From IMG/VR virus record IMGVR_UViG_3300014890_000018, positions 1 through 27,387 of that record: a stretch of DNA of 27,387 nt; one strand, 5' to 3'. This document shows, piece by piece, positions 1 to 23,561 of this stretch. How positions within the stretch are numbered: position 1 is the first letter of the stretch; each line of letters begins with the position of its first letter. Source of the DNA: a virus (Duplodnaviria; Heunggongvirae; Uroviricota; Caudoviricetes). The position numbers and the translations under genes are program-made. The notes under the pieces were generated by a model. That model did not search any database and was not told the DNA's origin. It saw only the letters and a list, made by a program, of their open reading frames with translations.

Positions 1-516
1 ATGAAATTTAAAAAATGTCTTCTGCCTGTGGCAATGTTAGCGTCATTCACTCTGGCAGGATGCCAGTCAAATGCTGATGATCATGCCGCCGATGTTTATC
101 AAACCGATCAACTGAATACCAAACAAGAAACTAAAACCGTTAATATTATTTCCATTCTTCCCGCAAAAGTTGCCGTAGACAACTCCCAAAATAAACGAAA
201 CGCACAAGCCTTCGGCGCGCTTATTGGTGCAGTCGCTGGCGGTGTTATTGGCCACAACGTCGGGTCTGGCAGCAATTCCGGAACGACGGCAGGTGCAGTT
301 GGCGGCGGAGCTGTTGGCGCGGCAGCGGGTTCTATGGTGAATGATAAAACCTTAGTGGAAGGTGTTTCTCTAACGTATAAGGAAGGCACCAAAGTGTATA
401 CCTCCACCCAGGTGGGTAAAGAGTGCCAGTTTACGACAGGTTTAGCCGTTGTTATTACCACGACGTATAACGAAACGCGTATTCAGCCAAATACCAAATG
501 TCCTGAAAAGAGCTAA
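1..516 (+). CDS. Glycine-zipper (SlyB/Pcp/OsmB-like) outer-membrane lipoprotein
   Basis: N-terminal signal peptide with lipobox LAGC (MKFKKCLLPVAMLASFTLAGC); Gly/Ala-rich zipper GALIGAVAGGVIGHNVGSG...GAVGGGAVGAAAG typical of the glycine-zipper lipoprotein family; ATG at position 1. Confidence 0.6.
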   Translation: MKFKKCLLPVAMLASFTLAGCQSNADDHAADVYQTDQLNTKQETKTVNIISILPAKVAVDNSQNKRNAQAFGALIGAVAGGVIGHNVGSGSNSGTTAGAVGGGAVGAAAGSMVNDKTLVEGVSLTYKEGTKVYTSTQVGKECQFTTGLAVVITTTYNETRIQPNTKCPEKS

Positions 517-531
517 TGATCAGGAGGAGTC

Positions 532-1071
532 ATGAAGAAAGTTTTTCTTTGCGCCATCTTAGCCTCCTTAAGCTATCCGGCTATCGCCTCATCATTGCAG
601 GATCAACTCTCTGCTGTCGCAGAAGCGGAACAGCAAGGTAAAAATGAAGAGCAAAGGCAGCATGACGAATGGGTCGCGGAGCGCAACAGGGAAATCCAGC
701 AAGAGAAGCAACGTCGCGCAAACGCCCAGGCCGCCGCTAACAAAAGAGCGGCAACGGCAGCGGCAAATAAGAAAGCTCGTCAGGATAAACTGGACGCCGA
801 AGCCTCTGCGGACAAAAAACGCGATCAAAGTTATGAAGATGAGCTACGCAGCTTAGAGATTCAGAAACAAAAACTGGCGCTGGCGAAAGAAGAAGCCCGC
901 GTTAAGCGAGAAAACGAATTTATCGATCAGGAACTGAAGCACAAAGCTGCGCAAACCGATGTGGTGCAATCTGAAGCTGACGCAAACAGGAATATGACTG
1001 AGGGCGGTCGAGATCTGATGAAAAGCGTGGGCAAAGCAGAAGAGAACAAATCGGACAGCTGGTTTAACTAA
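532..1071 (+). CDS. Secreted/periplasmic charged coiled-coil protein, function unknown
   Basis: RBS caggaggag 5-13 nt upstream of ATG; cleavable signal peptide MKKVFLCAILASLSYPAIASS; K/E/A/Q/R-rich low-complexity helical body; 15 bp downstream of the lipoprotein gene, so probably one operon. Confidence 0.55.
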   Translation: MKKVFLCAILASLSYPAIASSLQDQLSAVAEAEQQGKNEEQRQHDEWVAERNREIQQEKQRRANAQAAANKRAATAAANKKARQDKLDAEASADKKRDQSYEDELRSLEIQKQKLALAKEEARVKRENEFIDQELKHKAAQTDVVQSEADANRNMTEGGRDLMKSVGKAEENKSDSWFN

Positions 1072-1110
1072 GCGATGTCAGTAACTTCAAGCCTATGATT
1101 CGTGAGTATA

Positions 1111-1142
1111 AAAAACCCTCTGTAGTAACAGAGGGTTTTGTT
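1111..1142. terminator. Bidirectional rho-independent terminator
   Basis: Stem aaccctctg / cagagggtt (9 bp) with loop tagtaa, A-tract before and T-tract (ttttgtt) after; lies between the convergent plus-strand gene ending at 1071 and the minus-strand spanin gene ending at 1266. Confidence 0.7.
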
Positions 1143-1265
1143 CATTCATAGTGCAGGGTCAAATCATTCCCACTCAATTATTTACGGCATGCATAACCAA
1201 TTGACTGGTAACAACTTTCTGTAACCTGATTTTCACCGTACCGTTTTATATACCGTCACCGGAAA

Positions 1266-1763
1266 TCAGTGCCACGATTTTTGCTTCTTCAGTGAATCGT
1301 ATTGCTGCTCGCAGAATTCCCCCGCGATACGATACTTTTCAGCCTCAGCTGCTGTTGCGTTGTAAACTCGGTTGCTTTCTTCAAGCATGTCGGCGAGCAC
1401 ACCGATGACCTTGCTGGCTGGCGTGCCAGGGGGGAAAGATCCGGTATAGTGTTCGGCGAGCCGCCTGGTTTTGTCAAGCTCGGCGCGCATGCTGTCAGCA
1501 GCGGAATTAGCATACTCAGCATCAGCACGCTCCGCATCGATACGGGATTGTGCTTCACGTTCAATTTGTGTTTTCTCCTGCTCACGCTGTGACCTTAACT
1601 TATCATCAGCCTGTTTCTGATCTTCCTTCGCCTGCGCATACCCGGCATCGTACTGACGGATGCCGTGCACATTCCAGGCAACAACTCCTGATATGACCAG
1701 AACAGCAAGCACCGCCATGATAATCAACTGTTTCCGGTATGCTTTTACGAATGCCCAGATCAT
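1266..1763 (-). CDS. Rz-like inner-membrane spanin (i-spanin)
   Basis: N-terminal transmembrane anchor ([18 protein letters not shown]) followed by a charged coiled-coil periplasmic domain; last gene of the lysis cassette; ATG overlaps the endolysin stop (ATGA). Confidence 0.7.
1289..1537 (-). CDS. Rz1-like outer-membrane lipoprotein spanin (o-spanin), embedded in the +1 frame of the Rz-like gene
   Basis: Alternate-frame ORF wholly inside the Rz-like gene; signal peptide [17 protein letters not shown] with lipobox LTAC; Pro-rich mature part. Start uncertain: ATG at 1537, or ATG at 1522 which has an upstream GGAG. Confidence 0.5.
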   Translation of the reverse strand: MRSVLMLSMLIPLLTACAPSLTKPGGSPNTIPDLSPLARQPARSSVCSPTCLKKATEFTTQQQLRLKSIVSRGNSASSNTIH

Positions 1764-2389
1764 ACCGCCAGCACCTTACTGGCATTGATGTATCGCGCGC
1801 GCCGGTCGTCGATGCCGTTCCGGCCACCATTGATAATCAGAGTTACACGTGCAATATCGCCGGTATACTTCATGCATCCTTTGCTGGCAAAGAACCACGC
1901 CGCGCTACGAGCCGCGTATTCGTCCTGCGCCAGCAGTTCAGGACTCTCCAGCAGGTCAACCTTAAGACCGTTTCCACAGTCACGATAGTTATTCAAACCG
2001 GTAACCTGGATAAGCCCGCGCCCACGGTAGTTCCAGCCATCACCAGGGGCATTGTTCCCCATGCGTTTGCTGTACACCAGATTGGCAATCGCTCTCTGGC
2101 GCTCAAGTGGCAATGGTGGTTCGCCTGCACGTCGCCCCAATGCGTTGGCCTGTCCCTGAGTGAGACGCCCAGCCCGAACAAAGTTAGCCAGTCCGCTGAC
2201 GCTGTAGTTGAAATTCTCCTGCAACCGGGTGAAGCCTCCAGACTCATGCCCGACCTGAGCAATAAACATAGCCTGATCTTCTGGTTTGCTGATACCAAAC
2301 TCTTTCATCGCAGAAGTTATATGCGAGAACCAGCGTGCGGCCAGTGCCTCGCTGATACCAGCAGCTCGCTGGAATTGTTTAATCTCCAT
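1760..2389 (-). CDS. Endolysin, glycoside hydrolase family 19 (chitinase-like lysozyme)
   Basis: GH19 hallmarks read directly from the translation: [12 protein letters not shown] (catalytic Glu region), [32 protein letters not shown] 7 nt upstream of ATG. No N-terminal TM segment, so soluble and holin-dependent. Confidence 0.9.
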
Positions 2390-2687
2390 GTTTAGACCTC
2401 GTTATTTTGAAAATCTGAACGACGTTACCGCGAGTTTTAAGAACCGCAGCAAGCATGACAGCGTTGATAATGACCTCAGATAAATCCACAGCCATTGGCG
2501 TGCGTAACCAGATTGCATAGACGATACGAACAGGAATACTGGCCGCAGCAACAATAAGGAAATAAGCAAGCCACCCTCCCCATCTTCGGTGTTGTGAACC
2601 GTTACGCCGGAATGTGACAACACGAATTGCTATGCCAGTACAAATAAGTGCATTGGTGATAAGCAAAAAATACTCATGCGTTACCAT
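2379..2687 (-). CDS. Holin-like / lysis-regulating membrane protein (102 aa)
   Basis: Small protein with 2-3 hydrophobic helices ([42 protein letters not shown]) and charged C-terminus; directly upstream of the endolysin with overlapping ends; RBS GGGGAG. Confidence 0.6.
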
Positions 2688-3078
2688 CGCCTTTTCTCCC
2701 CGGTATTAACTCGCGTGGATTATCGGAGCGGTGATAGAGCCAGATGCCAATTCGCACTGCGACGATTGCTGACACGAATGCGCCGGCAGAGAAAACAATC
2801 CCTTTCTCGAAGGAATCCTGTGTGATGGTAGGGATCAGGCTGGCTATGCCGATAAGAATTGATGCTGCTGGTTTGTAAAAAAGAAGGCCGCAAAGAAAGC
2901 TGAGCATCGACAGGACTACCCGGCGGCGGATCGGATATTCGACAGCAGAGGTAACAAAAATCACAGCTCCAGCAAGGGAGCCTAAAGCCACCTCAGGAGG
3001 TGCTCCTGCTATAACCGCCGCCAGAGAACTCATGCTAAGCCACTGATTTAAAGACTCATTGGTTATCTGAACTGACAT
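2674..3078 (-). CDS. Holin-like membrane protein (134 aa from ATG at 3078)
   Basis: Multiple predicted TM helices (LSMSSLAAVIAGAPP, LAGAVIFVTSAV, LSMLSFLCGLLFY, ASILIGIASLI, GAFVSAIVAVRIGIWLY); first gene of the lysis cassette. The track start at 3087 is a GTG; ATG at 3078 preferred. Confidence 0.6.
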   Translation of the reverse strand: MSVQITNESLNQWLSMSSLAAVIAGAPPEVALGSLAGAVIFVTSAVEYPIRRRVVLSMLSFLCGLLFYKPAASILIGIASLIPTITQDSFEKGIVFSAGAFVSAIVAVRIGIWLYHRSDNPRELIPGRKGDGNA

Positions 3079-3193
3079 AAAAACCACCGTTTAATGTGCA
3101 TGAAGAACCACCTTAGTATGGGGTTCACCATGCATATTAAACCATATATGAATAGTTATTACCTCTACATCAATTAAATCACTATCATATAAA

Positions 3194-5779
3194 TTACATC
3201 TGGTTATTAATTTTCATTTCAATATTTTTAATGCGCTCAACCAATCCTCGCATAATGAAACGATCAAGTTCTTGATCTCGGAATTGCCACAAATCTCCTG
3301 CTTTCTTAACTAATTTTTTTTCACCAGTACTCACAGGAATAATGAATTTTTCACCATTTTGATCCGTAATTAACTCATCTTTAATGACATCTTCATATAC
3401 ATCATCCCATTTGTCATACCCTATAAATCCATAATCTCGCCAGTCCAGGCCCTCATCCTCTAAAACAGCAATAACTGCCTGAACAGTGGTGCCAGAGTGC
3501 AACCTTTTAGAATCATCATCAATCCATGTCCAGAAACCTAGCAGATCAGCCACTTTAATTGCTGCATTAATTTCAGATTTGGTGAATCCGCGAATCGGGT
3601 CTTTAAGACGCCCATCTGAACTTGACTGGGTTCCTCCGGCAAAATAACCAATGTTATATCGTAGTGATGCGCTACCTATATTTGAAGTGGCATCAGTTCC
3701 AGGAGTTATTCCTCCTGACGTTGCTATTTGCATTGCTGGAGTAGATCCAGACCCACCATGTCTGAACTGTAATTGACCTACACTGTTGTATTGTGTTCTC
3801 ATGAACCAAGATGTAGCATTGCCATTACTGAGCAGGCCAAGAATAGCATCAGAACCAGATGGAGCCGATACAGTGTACATTCCTGTCTTAGTGAGTGACG
3901 TCATGGTTTCTCCATCCTTGCTGACCAATAGTCTGTCGGAGCTTGCATCCATCATCACTTTCCATCCTGTAGACCCATCAGCAGCATTCTTCGTAAACTG
4001 AATTGATGCGTCACCAATATTCCCATCAGAGCCAAGAATTGCAACGGTATAACCGCCTGCTGGGTCTTTACCCACAACTCCAAATCTACCGTTTAGCGGA
4101 TCGCCTGAAACTATTATTTTTACAGGAATCACTCCGGCAAAATTGTCATTAAATATCTGAGAAATATAATTCATGCGCATGCCATAAAAACTAACGCCTC
4201 TCTTTACATTCTCAGAACCAATAAAAGTCGGAATATCTGAATTTGTAATACCATAAGGTGATTGCTCTACCACACCACCATAAAACTGGATGTTGGATGC
4301 GTGATCAAATTCTAATGCATGATTAGCTCTGGTTCTAAACTCACAGCCATAAAAGTAATGCCCATTTATTTCAGCGGATGTCGCATTAACATCACCATCT
4401 ATATAAAGGCATCGCCATGTGTTTGCGCTAGAGTAATAAGAAACAAGCTCTTCATGAGACATTGATGCACGACTGTGGTGATCAAGGGTATAAATACCAC
4501 ATTTATCTACTCTAGTTCCGCTGAGACCATAACTTGCAGGCCCAGTGTTTGAACCAAGAATTGCTAAACCGACTCGCCCCATAGTTGACCCACCAGTAAT
4601 GGTATTGTAATCAGGGTCATCGTTTCCTTGCTTTGACTGAATTATTGTACCTGCTTTTGAAAAGTATCCGAATACACAAACATCCTCCTGAAGATTTCTT
4701 GCAGAGTCATCGTAATAAACCCCACACTCATAATCTGCACGTTGGTCTTCATCAGGTTTTGTGTGATTACCGATGGAATCATAACAAATCATGTCTTGAA
4801 CCACGGCAATGCCTTTAAGGACAGATCCACTTGAACCATATTCTGGAGAAAGAACTCTCACGCAATATCGAACACTTGCGAAATGATCGTCTCTGTTATC
4901 TGTAGTAGCTATCTTTGTTCCTGCTCCAGAAAATATAAACGTAGCACCAGGCATATTTTCTTTTCTACCTTCAGCAAGAAAGAATTTGTCATCATCAGTA
5001 CCAAATCCAAGAACAGGAGAACCATTACCAATGAATCGAAAATCACCAGGTATTTCTATACCATCAGAGAATCGATAAACCCCATCAGGAACAAAAAAAG
5101 TTTTCTTTCCAGATGCAAGCAAAGCCTGCCACTGCGTTAAGTTGTCCGTTTTATAGTCACCTTTTAATCCAAAATCGGTTATGCTGACTGTATCTCGCAT
5201 CTTATCCTGGAACGTTCGATATATCGCACCAGAACCATACTGAATAAACCAACCAAAACCACCAACAACTCCGGCGATTGCAGCATCAACATAATTACGC
5301 ATTGAGCGATTATTTACAGCATCCTGCTCAAGTGATGGATCTGCAAGGTTAGAAATTCTGTTTTGCTTTGCATCGTAATATTTTGCAAGCAAAGATGGTT
5401 TCATCAATGCACGTCTGAACCACCCAAAACATTGCTGGATCAGCATCGTCAGGTAGTCAAAAGCATCTTCATGCACTTCGGGGAAAAATTTTCCCTGATT
5501 GCGAAGGTCTGTCTCCTGCACTACATCAAGCACACGATCTATCGTAATTCGCCATCCAGCAGCAAGCGGCGACGGAAGAACAACAGAACCGCCACTATAA
5601 GTGCCCGCCCCAGTTACCGTATAACCGGTATCCAGAACCAATTCTGTTACGTTCCCGTTCAGGTCAGACACCTGAACAACCAGGTCGGATTTTTTGAAAA
5701 TACGGAAGGTATACGGAAATGATGTCGTAGCGCCGTTACCGGTGTATTCGTTGTGGTCAACTTCGGTTGAGACCGTCAT
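3194..5779 (-). CDS. Tailspike / tail fibre: conserved N-terminal anchor, low-GC central domain (probable glycan depolymerase), C-terminal intramolecular chaperone (peptidase S74-like)
   Basis: 861 aa. N-terminus (MTVSTEVDHNEYTGNGATTSFPYTF...) matches the conserved N-terminal domain of podovirus tail fibres/spikes. C-terminal ~135 aa follow a SSDGRLKD motif, the S-D-x-R-x-K autocleavage signature of S74 chaperone domains. RBS GGAG 7 nt upstream. Strong AT-shift over roughly 3.2-5.5 kb versus the 5' end. Confidence 0.85.
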   Translation of the reverse strand: MTVSTEVDHNEYTGNGATTSFPYTFRIFKKSDLVVQVSDLNGNVTELVLDTGYTVTGAGTYSGGSVVLPSPLAAGWRITIDRVLDVVQETDLRNQGKFFPEVHEDAFDYLTMLIQQCFGWFRRALMKPSLLAKYYDAKQNRISNLADPSLEQDAVNNRSMRNYVDAAIAGVVGGFGWFIQYGSGAIYRTFQDKMRDTVSITDFGLKGDYKTDNLTQWQALLASGKKTFFVPDGVYRFSDGIEIPGDFRFIGNGSPVLGFGTDDDKFFLAEGRKENMPGATFIFSGAGTKIATTDNRDDHFASVRYCVRVLSPEYGSSGSVLKGIAVVQDMICYDSIGNHTKPDEDQRADYECGVYYDDSARNLQEDVCVFGYFSKAGTIIQSKQGNDDPDYNTITGGSTMGRVGLAILGSNTGPASYGLSGTRVDKCGIYTLDHHSRASMSHEELVSYYSSANTWRCLYIDGDVNATSAEINGHYFYGCEFRTRANHALEFDHASNIQFYGGVVEQSPYGITNSDIPTFIGSENVKRGVSFYGMRMNYISQIFNDNFAGVIPVKIIVSGDPLNGRFGVVGKDPAGGYTVAILGSDGNIGDASIQFTKNAADGSTGWKVMMDASSDRLLVSKDGETMTSLTKTGMYTVSAPSGSDAILGLLSNGNATSWFMRTQYNSVGQLQFRHGGSGSTPAMQIATSGGITPGTDATSNIGSASLRYNIGYFAGGTQSSSDGRLKDPIRGFTKSEINAAIKVADLLGFWTWIDDDSKRLHSGTTVQAVIAVLEDEGLDWRDYGFIGYDKWDDVYEDVIKDELITDQNGEKFIIPVSTGEKKLVKKAGDLWQFRDQELDRFIMRGLVERIKNIEMKINNQM

Positions 5780-5935: not shown

Positions 5936-5955
5936 TACTGTATATTTATACAGTT
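5936..5955 (+). promoter_or_regulatory. LexA (SOS) box, 18/20 match to consensus
   Basis: TACTGTATATTTATACAGTT versus consensus TACTGTATATATATACAGTA; CTGT-N8-ACAG core intact; lies 20 bp upstream of the ATG at 5975, in the divergent region between the tailspike and the small plus-strand ORF. Confidence 0.75.
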
Positions 5956-5974: not shown

Positions 5975-6232
5975 ATGCAGCAGTATCACTATCCACTGGA
6001 AGACGGATTTACCGAAAGGATTCACACGCCGGGAGGCGTCAGGTCACTGGTGGAGGGATCGCACTTGATGAAATTACTCCGGGATCTCGATAAGGATGGA
6101 TTTAATGTCGATGGCCCACTTGCCGAACTGACTGCACTGATTAACTACGTCACCAGCTCACAGATGTCTATGCAGGATCTGCAAACACATCTCGACTATT
6201 GTGCCGAACAATTACGAAAGCAAACCACATAA
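5975..6232 (+). CDS. SOS-regulated small protein (85 aa), function unknown; candidate antirepressor or SOS-induced accessory protein
   Basis: ATG at 5975 with GGAG 8 nt upstream (the track start at 5957 is a TTG); LexA box just upstream; opposite orientation to all flanking structural genes. No motif I recognise. Confidence 0.55.
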   Translation: MQQYHYPLEDGFTERIHTPGGVRSLVEGSHLMKLLRDLDKDGFNVDGPLAELTALINYVTSSQMSMQDLQTHLDYCAEQLRKQTT

Positions 6233-6254
6233 AGAAAAGGCCGCGAAAGCGGCC
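6231..6254 (-). terminator. Rho-independent terminator for the minus-strand secreted-protein gene; hairpin also abuts the stop codon of the plus-strand small ORF
   Basis: Perfect stem ggccgc / gcggcc with GNRA-type loop gaaa at 6239-6254; on the minus strand it is followed by TTTTCTTT (6238-6231). On the plus strand no U-tract follows. Confidence 0.65.
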
Positions 6255-6255
6255 T

Positions 6256-6268: not shown

Positions 6269-6829
6269 CTACATTGATATATGATTCATAAAGTAGCTTA
6301 GAGATTTACTTCCCAGAAAAGAAATTTCTTTTCCTGGATATGTCGCAATAATTGAGCATGACTTATCCCCGTTAGAGGTAACAAATCCTGAATAACCTAC
6401 TTGTTCTTTACCATTTTGTTGCTTGGCTAAAAAGTAGAGGTAGCTTATCTTTTTGCCCTCTGGGTAAAACTCTGCCAAACCAGTATCGGTGATTGAATAT
6501 TTTATTCTCCCGCCTTGAGTAACGTTTTCCATCTCAAGTTTAGCTATGTCTTTTCTGTTGTATTCAGCATTGATTTTCCTTTCGAAATCAATGTTGTTTT
6601 CAAATGAGTAGGAAGCAACAGTCTGAATAGATGGGAACACGTTTATCTGGATGCCTCCACAGTCGGCACAGGTATAAAGGTATGAATCAGATGGAATCCC
6701 CATAAAAGAAAACTGAGTTACCTTAAATTTATCGCTATCTCCAAAGTATTGAAGTTCGCATTTAACATTTTGCCCTGCAAAAGAAAATGCAGACATTAAT
6801 ATTGAAACAAAAAATATAATTGCCTTCAT
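6269..6829 (-). CDS. AT-rich moron encoding a secreted (signal-peptide) protein of unknown function, 186 aa
   Basis: Signal peptide MKAIIFFVSILMSAFSFAG, no lipobox; four Cys in the mature part; markedly AT-rich versus the upstream virion genes; starts 2 nt after the stop of the 850-aa gene; followed by terminator and palindrome. Confidence 0.65.
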   Translation of the reverse strand: MKAIIFFVSILMSAFSFAGQNVKCELQYFGDSDKFKVTQFSFMGIPSDSYLYTCADCGGIQINVFPSIQTVASYSFENNIDFERKINAEYNRKDIAKLEMENVTQGGRIKYSITDTGLAEFYPEGKKISYLYFLAKQQNGKEQVGYSGFVTSNGDKSCSIIATYPGKEISFLGSKSLSYFMNHISM

Positions 6830-18965: not shown

Positions 18966-18985
18966 GTGGGTCTGTTACGACCCAC
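18966..18985 (-). promoter_or_regulatory. Stem-loop just after the major capsid gene; candidate attenuator or stability element
   Basis: Stem gtgggtc / gacccac (7 bp), 6-nt loop, in the 51-bp gap between the capsid stop (19002) and the next start (18950); same position as the T-phi terminator after T7 gene 10. Confidence 0.45.
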
Positions 18986-19001
18986 AGGTTAATAACAGGC
19001 G

Positions 19002-23483: not shown

Positions 23484-23561
23484 ACAGCAGGACGCCATTG
23501 CGATGACTTCATGCTGTAAACCAGTACAGCCACGGAAGGCATAACTCATTGCTTCCAGTTC

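What the first reader, a model, noticed from the sequence alone, without database searches (positions are those of the whole stretch)
3194..5779. Chimeric tailspike: conserved anchor, low-GC enzymatic body, autoproteolytic S74-type C-terminal chaperone
The first ~70 codons are GC-normal and match the conserved tail-fibre N-terminal anchor. The remainder is strongly AT-rich, indicating horizontal acquisition. The last ~135 residues follow SSDGRLKD (around 3600-3630), the S-D-x-R-x-K autocleavage signature of intramolecular chaperone domains found on endosialidase-type and other depolymerase tailspikes. This predicts a glycan-degrading receptor-binding protein whose C-terminus is cleaved off after trimerisation.
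Basis: partly seen in the sequence, partly recalled or inferred. Interest (0 to 1): 0.45.

Follow-up and report, generated by a model that had tools for sequence, protein, structure and literature searches.

The report
Mosaic prophage tailspike with self-cleaving chaperone
This is an ordinary but neatly mosaic receptor-binding tailspike gene of an E. coli prophage, combining a conserved tail-attachment end, a swapped-in sugar-cutting body and a C-terminal helper domain that almost certainly cuts itself off after assembly.

Summary
The finding holds up, with corrected boundaries. Window 3194-5779 (minus strand) encodes one intact 861-aa tailspike of a phiV10/epsilon15-like (Uetakevirus) prophage of E. 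coli, inserted next to yfgI.

- **C-terminal chaperone.** Residues 721-861 are a Peptidase_S74 intramolecular chaperone (29.8 bits against a cutoff of 22). All four catalytic-site residues of the phage T5 fibre chaperone are conserved: D696, R707, S721 and K726.
- **Body.** The middle of the protein is predicted to be a right-handed beta-helix, like many phage depolymerases. It belongs to a small uncharacterised family, and whether it is a hydrolase or a lyase is unresolved.
- **Anchor.** The conserved anchor is about 197-212 residues, not about 70. GC falls from 49% to 41% at about codon 120.
- **Mosaic.** The gene has at least four pieces. Residues 358-720 are 99% identical in DNA to a P22-like prophage tailspike, while both flanks are 55-80% identical. 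Divergence resumes exactly at the predicted cleavage site.
- **Receptor.** The target is probably a mannose-rich O-antigen of the O17/O44/O73/O77/O106 group. This is only suggested, because one of the three lysogen lineages has a different O-antigen cluster.

It is a new member of a well-known kind and of low interest.

The parts
3194..5779 (-). Complete tailspike gene: 861 aa, 94.3 kDa, stop codon at 3194-3196
   Evidence: ORF list. It is 100% identical to WP_157912201.1, a 'tail fiber domain-containing protein', in four E. coli JNE strains. Mass.
5495..5779 (-). Residues 1-95: compact beta-rich N-terminal anchor domain for tail attachment
   Evidence: AF2 pLDDT is about 87-95 for residues 11-80. 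Sequence match to the Carin-1 fibre N-terminus 8ck1 (E 1e-31). Foldseek matches 8ck1_B and the T7 gp17 N-terminus. PHROG tailspike families match from residue 1.
5192..5494 (-). Residues 96-196: helical neck. It is still part of the anchor conserved among E. coli Uetakevirus prophages, but it becomes AT-rich from about codon 120.
   Evidence: Helices predicted at 100-125 and 151-172, with low monomer pLDDT. DNA is 99.1% identical to strain ECONIH2 up to gene nt 589. GC is 40.8% for codons 121-196.
5145..5191 (-). Junction between anchor and receptor-binding body, where similarity to other Uetakevirus prophage tailspikes ends (gene nt 589-635)
   Evidence: blastn against L003 and L004. It agrees with the published 205-aa anchor of the phiV10 receptor-binding protein (PMC10408124).
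3980..5191 (-). Residues 197-600: right-handed parallel beta-helix body, the putative polysaccharide depolymerase. Family-invariant residues are K265, R296, D329, Y372, D390, D433, H434, H435, R437, D461 and E505.
3621..4708 (-). Recently exchanged segment (gene nt 1072-2159, residues 358-720), 99% identical to the P22-like prophage tailspike of E. coli C4 and strain 1506
   Evidence: There are 10 mismatches in 1088 nt. The flanks are 60-80% identical upstream and 55-77% identical downstream.
3620..3979 (-). Residues 601-720: C-terminal beta-strand domain of the mature protein. Its last roughly 50 residues are homologous to the segment before the chaperone in T5 pb1, and it carries D696 and R707.
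   Evidence: Strands predicted at 606-693. HMMER alignment to 4uw8 starts at residue 671. D696 and R707 align without gaps to T5 Asp1239 and Arg1250.
3602..3619 (-). S721-D-G-R-L-K726: predicted scissile and nucleophilic serine plus the general-base lysine. Cleavage is predicted between S720 and S721.
   Evidence: S721 aligns to T5 pb1 Ser1264 (Ala in the 4uw8 mutant) and K726 to Lys1269. S, D and K are invariant in all 25 S74-bearing relatives in alignment A1. The Pfam S74 match starts at residue 721.
3197..3619 (-). Residues 721-861: Peptidase_S74 intramolecular chaperone domain, 141 aa and 16.4 kDa. It includes the conserved R759-x-H761-x-G763 motif and a C-terminal helix at 835-860.
   Evidence: Pfam PF13884. 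PDB sequence matches: 7y5s at E 4e-22 and 4uw8 at E 3e-21. Family-profile matches: 3gud at E 4e-23 and 3gw6 at E 9e-21. Foldseek matches 4uw8 and 3gw6. Mass.

Best explanation
The gene encodes the host-recognition tailspike of a temperate phiV10/epsilon15-like podovirus (Uetakevirus) integrated beside yfgI in E. coli.

**Domains.**
- Residues 1 to about 200 form the genus-conserved anchor: a small beta domain plus a helical neck that fixes the trimer to the tail.
- Residues about 200-720 form a right-handed beta-helix body plus a C-terminal beta domain. This part binds a surface polysaccharide of the host and most probably cleaves it.
- Residues 721-861 form an S74 intramolecular chaperone.

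**Maturation (inferred).** Three chaperone domains trimerise and template the folding of the C-terminal end of the body. Once the trimer is correct, R707 of a neighbouring chain and D696 complete the active site. K726 then activates S721, and the S720-S721 bond is cut. This releases a 16-kDa fragment and leaves a 78-kDa mature spike.

**Origin.** The gene was built by recombination from at least four segments: anchor, proximal helix, distal helix with C-terminal domain, and chaperone.

**Shown versus inferred.** The sequence and fold assignments, the conserved catalytic residues and the mosaic boundaries are shown. Cleavage, enzymatic activity and the receptor are inferred.
For: - **Anchor.** PHROG tailspike families match residues 1-166/241 at E down to 1e-143. 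DNA is 96-99% identical to Uetakevirus phages and about 500 E. coli prophages over nt 1-590/635. The gene lies between virion-protein genes and the holin/endolysin cassette.
- **Chaperone.** The Pfam S74 match is above its gathering score. There is strong similarity to the T5 pb1 and Kp7 gp51 chaperones. The family profile matches the K1F endosialidase chaperone at E 9e-21. D696, R707, S721 and K726 align without gaps to the T5 catalytic site described in PMC4690869. The Ser-Lys dyad with +5 spacing matches PMC3742443.
- **Mosaic.**
- **Receptor lead.** The JNE strains and C4 carry the same body on two unrelated prophage types. Both have identical O17/O44/O73/O77/O106-group wzx and wzy genes, and this wzy is present in only 94 of 5426 genomes.
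Against: - No experiment is available, so cleavage and enzyme activity are predictions.
- The Pfam beta-helix model PF12708 is just below its cutoff. No characterised enzyme is homologous beyond the N-terminal cap of the helix, so the chemistry is open.
- Strain 1506 carries a tailspike 98.9% identical to that of C4 but has an O88-type O-antigen cluster. This argues against strict specificity for the O77 group.
- The structure is a monomer prediction of a trimeric protein, with low confidence at residues 97-194 and 702-724.
Confidence: 0.78

Rival explanations
1. The protein binds its receptor but does not cut it. The beta-helix would be a non-enzymatic adhesin, like the T5 L-shaped fibre from which the closest chaperone relative comes. 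The S74 domain would still be cleaved off.
Against: D329, D390, D461 and E505, together with K265, R296, Y372, H434, H435 and R437, are 95-100% conserved across 94 diverged relatives. That pattern is typical of an active site rather than a binding surface that varies with the receptor. Nearly all top structural matches are depolymerases.
Confidence: 0.15
2. The target is not the O-antigen but another surface glycan, such as a group 1 or 4 capsule, colanic acid or another exopolysaccharide. In that case the shared O77-group serotype of two lysogens would be a coincidence or the result of shared ancestry.
For: Strain 1506 has a nearly identical spike (98.9% to C4) but an O88-type O-antigen cluster. 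Many structural neighbours are capsule depolymerases.
Against: Characterised Uetakevirus and Lederbergvirus spikes target O-antigens (PMC10408124). The JNE strains and C4 share an O-antigen cluster found in only 1.7% of genomes. Given the JNE type, the chance that at least one of the two other lineages shares it is about 3%.
Confidence: 0.2
3. The S74 domain is a retained, uncleaved C-terminal trimerisation domain. The catalytic machinery would be present but processing would not occur in this context.
For: There is no direct evidence of cleavage. The AF2 confidence is low around residues 702-724.
Against: All four catalytic-site residues are intact, as are the conserved D722 and G763 positions, which correspond to residues essential in K1F and MYRF. 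Every characterised member with an intact dyad is processed (PMC4690869, PMC3742443).
Confidence: 0.07

Closest known systems
Phage T5 L-shaped tail fibre pb1, C-terminal region with its intramolecular chaperone (PDB 4UW8; PMC4690869)
   Same: Residues 671-857 align at E about 1e-21. The catalytic-site residues Asp1239, Arg1250, Ser1264 and Lys1269 correspond to D696, R707, S721 and K726. The chaperones are of similar size (133 against 141 aa), and both have a C-terminal helix and beta-hairpins.
   Different: T5 pb1 is a 1396-aa non-enzymatic fibre of a siphovirus with a 'bullet' domain. Here the chaperone follows a beta-helix body on a podovirus spike.
Klebsiella phage Kp7 type I tail fibre gp51 (PDB 7Y5S)
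   Different: It has a different N-terminal anchor. The body is only about 15% identical, and the host and receptor differ.
K1F endosialidase (endoNF) intramolecular chaperone (PDB 3GW6; Pfam Peptidase_S74)
   Same: It shares the domain family and the Ser-Lys dyad mechanism. The family profile matches at E 9e-21 and Foldseek at E 5e-5.
   Different: The endosialidase catalytic part is a beta-propeller sialidase with a triple-beta-helix stalk. Nothing of that is present here, so only the chaperone is shared.
phiV10 and epsilon15 (Uetakevirus) tailspikes
   Same: They share the N-terminal anchor (96-97% DNA identity to Uetakevirus phages over nt 1-590, and 76% to an epsilon15-like phage over nt 1-348). 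They also share the same genome position upstream of the holin and endolysin genes.
   Different: The receptor-binding bodies are unrelated. None of 50,697 GenBank phage records has this body; the best match is 33% identity.
P22-like (Lederbergvirus) prophage tailspikes of E. coli C4 and strain 1506
   Same: Residues 358-720 are 99-100% identical, and the whole body and chaperone are homologous at 85% over residues 203-854.
   Different: They have a P22-type head-binding N-terminus. The proximal helix (53-78% identity) and the chaperone (57-70% identity) are diverged alleles.

Membership tests
Peptidase_S74 / intramolecular chaperone auto-processing domain | Match to the Pfam PF13884 model above its gathering score | tested here: met
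   29.8 bits against a cutoff of 22, over residues 721-778 and model positions 1-58 of 58. The profile built from alignment A1 matches 3GW6 at E 9e-21 and 3GUD at E 4e-23.
Peptidase_S74 / intramolecular chaperone auto-processing domain | Catalytic serine with a lysine five residues downstream | tested here: met
   S721 and K726 align to T5 Ser1264 and Lys1269. They are invariant in all 25 S74-bearing relatives in A1. The dyad is described in PMC3742443.
Peptidase_S74 / intramolecular chaperone auto-processing domain | Upstream arginine (oxyanion stabilisation, supplied by a neighbouring chain) and aspartate in the segment before the chaperone | tested here: met
   R707 and D696 align without gaps to T5 Arg1250 and Asp1239. 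R707 is conserved in most relatives.
Peptidase_S74 / intramolecular chaperone auto-processing domain | Location at the extreme C-terminus of a trimeric fibre or spike, with the chaperone fold (helices, beta-hairpin 'tentacles', C-terminal coiled-coil helix) | tested here: met
   The domain is the last 141 residues. The AF2 model has helices at 734-775, hairpins at 786-833 and a helix at 835-860. Foldseek matches 4uw8 at E 5e-9 and 3gw6 at E 5e-5. This is a monomer model only.
Peptidase_S74 / intramolecular chaperone auto-processing domain | Trimerisation-dependent self-cleavage and release of the domain | not testable with these tools
   It needs expression and SDS-PAGE or mass spectrometry. 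The prediction is 94.3 kDa cleaved into 78.0 and 16.4 kDa.
Uetakevirus (phiV10/epsilon15-type) tailspike | Genus-conserved N-terminal anchor of about 205 aa | tested here: met
   DNA identity is 96-99% over nt 1-589/635. The taxonomy of matching phage ZX5 is Uetakevirus. The anchor length is given in PMC10408124.
Uetakevirus (phiV10/epsilon15-type) tailspike | Conserved position in the genome, after the virion-protein genes and before the holin, endolysin and spanin genes | tested here: met
Right-handed beta-helix polysaccharide depolymerase (pectate-lyase-like superfamily) | Right-handed parallel beta-helix fold | tested here: met
Right-handed beta-helix polysaccharide depolymerase (pectate-lyase-like superfamily) | Match to a curated family model (PF12708) | tested here: inconclusive
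   26.2 bits against a cutoff of 27, covering only the N-terminal cap at residues 198-257. NCBIfam gave no match.
Right-handed beta-helix polysaccharide depolymerase (pectate-lyase-like superfamily) | Identifiable catalytic residues and demonstrated glycan cleavage | tested here: inconclusive
   Invariant D329, D390, D461 and E505, together with K265, R296, Y372, H434, H435 and R437, were found. They could not be placed in space, and hydrolase versus lyase is undecided. Activity cannot be tested here.
Endosialidase (GH58) tailspike | Beta-propeller sialidase catalytic domain and endosialidase N-terminal and stalk domains | tested here: not met
   No endosialidase catalytic model matched. The predicted fold is a beta-helix. 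Only the chaperone domain is shared.

The most novel reading that the evidence does not exclude
The beta-helix body may represent an uncharacterised depolymerase family. It has only 151 representatives among 1.84 billion proteins, no close relative in any sequenced phage isolate, and occurs in 6 of 5426 complete E. coli genomes. It may target the mannose-rich backbone of the O17/O44/O73/O77/O106 O-antigen group, a group that includes EAEC 042 and the emerging STEC O77g lineage. If so, it would be a second O77-group depolymerase unrelated to CBA120 TSP3, and it travels between podovirus genera as a cassette whose chaperone is exchanged separately at the cleavage site.
Probability: 0.3. Interest if true: 0.4.

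Novelty: new member of a known kind. Interest (0 to 1): 0.2.

Why it matters
The finding matters mainly as a clean worked example.

- A single prophage gene shows anchor, proximal helix, distal helix and chaperone as separately inherited pieces.
- One boundary falls exactly at the self-cleavage site. This fits the view that S74 chaperones are portable folding modules.
- In practice, the body could be a source of a serogroup-specific depolymerase or a typing reagent for O77-group E. coli, but only if the suggested specificity is confirmed.

It does not change current understanding of tailspikes.

Tried and rejected
- **NCBIfam scan.** No match.
- **tblastn of the body against 50,697 phage records.** Only five distant matches at 30-34% identity, so no characterised phage gives the specificity.
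- **Sensitive blastn in complete E. coli genomes.** It found no carriers beyond the six already known.
- **Family profile against PDB.** The body matches only the generic N-terminal cap of beta-helices, so no enzyme class can be transferred.
- **Endosialidase-like catalytic part.** Considered and rejected: there is no such domain and the fold is different.
- **O-antigen of the lysogens as a test of specificity.** JNE25-003 and C4 agree, but strain 1506 does not, so the result is only suggestive. One region fetch went in the wrong direction, and one aimed at a prophage at a different site.
- **O88 structure.** It was not in the main text of the review.
- **Technical failures.** The epsilon15 tailspike preprint could not be opened. 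Model coordinates are not exposed, so the invariant residues could not be mapped in 3D.
- **Literature.** No paper mentions this protein accession or these strains.
Full report
**What is there.** Window 3194..5779 on the minus strand is a single uninterrupted ORF of 861 codons.
- The window itself is the right end of a prophage.
  - Positions 1-1071 are the chromosomal genes yfgH and yfgI.
  - They are followed by a spanin-like DUF2514 gene, a GH19 endolysin and two holins (1266-3087).
  - Then come the gene in question, a short regulatory or accessory region, and a long block of virion genes: an 850-aa structural protein, an SLT-domain protein, capsid and portal.
- The window is 99.5% identical to a prophage in four Japanese human E. 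coli isolates (JNE25-001, -003, -005 and JNE12-007), where the gene is annotated 'tail fiber domain-containing protein'.
- The related phages are classified as Uetakevirus, the phiV10/epsilon15 group.

**Check of the observation.** The coordinates, the strand, the SSDGRLKD motif and the count of about 135 residues following it are correct. The motif is residues 720-727, window 3622-3599, and 134 residues follow it.
- The compositional contrast is real.
  - Codons 121-861 are 40.6% GC, with third-position GC of about 0.28-0.31.
  - Equally long stretches of the prophage backbone average 52.3% and never fall below 49.4%.
- The boundary is misplaced. The GC-normal part is about 120 codons (48.9% GC), not about 70.
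- The conserved anchor is also longer than stated.
  - PHROG tailspike families match residues 1-166 or 1-241.
  - DNA identity of 96-99% to other E. coli Uetakevirus prophages and phages runs to gene nt 589-635, that is residues about 197-212.
  - This agrees with the published 205-residue anchor of the phiV10 receptor-binding protein (PMC10408124).
  - Similarity to Salmonella epsilon15-like phages stops at nt 348. That coincides with the end of the GC-normal part.

**The C-terminal domain.** Pfam Peptidase_S74 matches residues 721-778 over the whole model at 29.8 bits, against a gathering score of 22.
- Residues 671-857 align to the C-terminal region of the phage T5 L-shaped fibre pb1 (4UW8, E about 1e-21).
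- Residues 688-856 align to the C-terminal region of the Klebsiella phage Kp7 fibre gp51 (7Y5S, E about 1e-21 to 1e-23).
- A profile built from 41 relatives also matches the K1F endosialidase chaperone 3GW6 (E 9e-21) and the GA-1 neck appendage chaperone 3GUD (E 4e-23).
- The T5 paper assigns the cleavage chemistry to four residues: Ser1264, Lys1269, Arg1250 from a neighbouring chain, and Asp1239 (PMC4690869).
  - In the ungapped part of the HMMER alignment these correspond to S721, K726, R707 and D696.
  - S721, D722 and K726, and a downstream R-x-H-x-G motif (759-763), are invariant in all 25 S74-bearing relatives aligned.
- The Ser/Lys(+5) dyad and the requirement for trimerisation are established for this family (PMC3742443).
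- The AF2 model of this part has helices, long beta-hairpins and a C-terminal helix. Foldseek matches it to 4UW8 (E 5e-9) and 3GW6 (E 5e-5).
- I therefore predict cleavage of the S720-S721 bond, giving a 78.0-kDa mature spike and a 16.4-kDa released fragment. This is inference and was not observed.

**The body.** The AF2 model has a mean pLDDT of 79.7, mostly above 90 for residues 200-690. It shows a right-handed parallel beta-helix followed by a beta-strand domain at residues 601-720.
- At sequence level only the generic N-terminal cap of the helix (about residues 195-260) matches known structures, and Pfam PF12708 scores 26.2 against its cutoff of 27.
- The body defines a small family.
  - It has 151 representatives at E <= 1e-3 among 1.84 billion cluster representatives.
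  - It has no close relative in 50,697 GenBank phage records (best 33% identity).
  - It is present in only 6 of 5426 complete E. coli genomes.
- Across 94 family members of 30-80% identity, these residues are 90-100% conserved: K265, R296, D329, Y372, D390, D433, H434, H435, R437, D461 and E505. I read this as an active site. I could not map the residues in space, because model coordinates are not exposed.

**Mosaic structure.** The same body occurs behind at least four kinds of N-terminus: the Uetakevirus anchor, the P22 head-binding domain PF09008, PF18668 and the T7-type PF03906.
- It also occurs in front of at least three kinds of C-terminus: two subtypes of S74 chaperone, a short 'GSPEG...GNTGW' tail, and an unrelated beta domain.
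- Conversely, the same anchor carries many other bodies, and 48 of the 120 best relatives have an S74 domain.
- The comparison with the P22-like prophage tailspikes of E. coli C4 and strain 1506 is the sharpest.
  - Those two are 98.9% identical to each other.
  - Gene nt 1072-2159 (residues 358-720, window 4708-3621) differ at only 10 of 1088 positions.
  - The proximal helix (nt about 640-1071) is 60-80% identical.
  - The chaperone (nt 2160-2586) is 55-77% identical.
  - Divergence resumes at nt 2160, the last base of codon 720, exactly at the predicted scissile bond. The crossover interval is nt 2036-2160.
- Downstream, similarity to other Uetakevirus prophages resumes 23-29 nt after the stop codon, at only 87-88%.
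- The gene is thus a patchwork of at least four segments, and the chaperone behaves as a separately exchanged module.

**Receptor.** Characterised Uetakevirus and Lederbergvirus spikes are O-antigen specific (PMC10408124).
- JNE25-003 (Uetakevirus prophage) and C4 (P22-like prophage) have identical wzx, wzy and glycosyltransferase proteins of the O17/O44/O73/O77/O106 group.
- This wzy occurs in 94 of 5426 genomes, or 1.7%.
- The backbone of the group is a Man-Man-Man-GlcNAc repeat (PMC7685785).
- Strain 1506, with an almost identical spike, has an O88-type cluster.
- The link is therefore suggestive only. Given the JNE type, the chance that at least one of the two other lineages shares it is about 3%. 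The only known O77 depolymerase, CBA120 TSP3, shares nothing but the helix cap.

**Comparison and verdict.** The protein meets every computationally testable criterion for an S74 intramolecular chaperone and for a Uetakevirus tailspike anchor.
- It has the fold of a beta-helix depolymerase.
- It is not an endosialidase.
- The architecture, the mode of maturation and domain swapping between Uetakevirus and Lederbergvirus prophages are all well described.
- What is particular here is the uncharacterised body family and the precise four-piece mosaic with a boundary at the cleavage site.
- I rate it a new member of a known kind, of low interest (0.2).

Noticed in passing
window 5938-5953 and 5975-6232 (+): A perfect LexA-box-like palindrome, CTGTATATTTATACAG, lies about 22 nt upstream of an 85-aa ORF that is divergent from the tailspike gene. 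The ORF matches phrog_450 (unknown function) and, weakly, the C-terminus of an anti-repressor family. It is probably an SOS-controlled Tum-like antirepressor.
   Followed up: partly
window 6269-6829 (-) and 6238-6255 (-): A 186-aa ORF with a signal-peptide-like N-terminus and very low GC (35.5%) is conserved in related prophages (phrog_11983, unknown function). A strong intrinsic terminator, AGGCCGC-TTTC-GCGGCCT followed by a T run, comes right after it. It looks like a moron-type accessory gene.
   Followed up: partly
window ~6230-6254, compared with L001 16227-19526: The otherwise 99.7-99.97% identical prophage of E. coli JNE25-003 carries an extra 3.3 kb here, with two YafO-family toxin genes and an Ant antirepressor gene. 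The window lacks it, and other relatives carry different cargo at the same spot.
   Followed up: partly
window 485-3171 (lysis cassette and yfgI side): Upstream of the tailspike body the window is 98-99% identical to strains ECONIH2 and N1131, but downstream of it (holins, endolysin, spanin) only 87-88%. The recombination that brought in the body may therefore have brought a diverged lysis cassette too.
   Followed up: no
alignment A1 (relatives P0021-P0042, P0100): The same beta-helix body family ends in three alternative C-termini: an S74 chaperone (two subtypes), a short conserved 'SGSPEG...GNTGW' tail, or an unrelated beta domain of about 100 aa. These appear to be alternative trimerisation or capping solutions for one body.
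   Followed up: partly
L005 (JNE25-003), L007 (C4), L010 (strain 1506): Lysogens carrying this body have O17/O44/O73/O77/O106-group O-antigen clusters (the JNE strains and C4) or an O88-type cluster flanked by an ISAs1 remnant (strain 1506). Strain 1506 carries a P22-like prophage at tRNA-Thr, near proA.
   Followed up: partly
window 18972-18987 and 23514-23529: Two further CTGT-N8-ACAG matches have GC-rich spacers, unlike the LexA consensus. They are probably chance matches.
   Followed up: no
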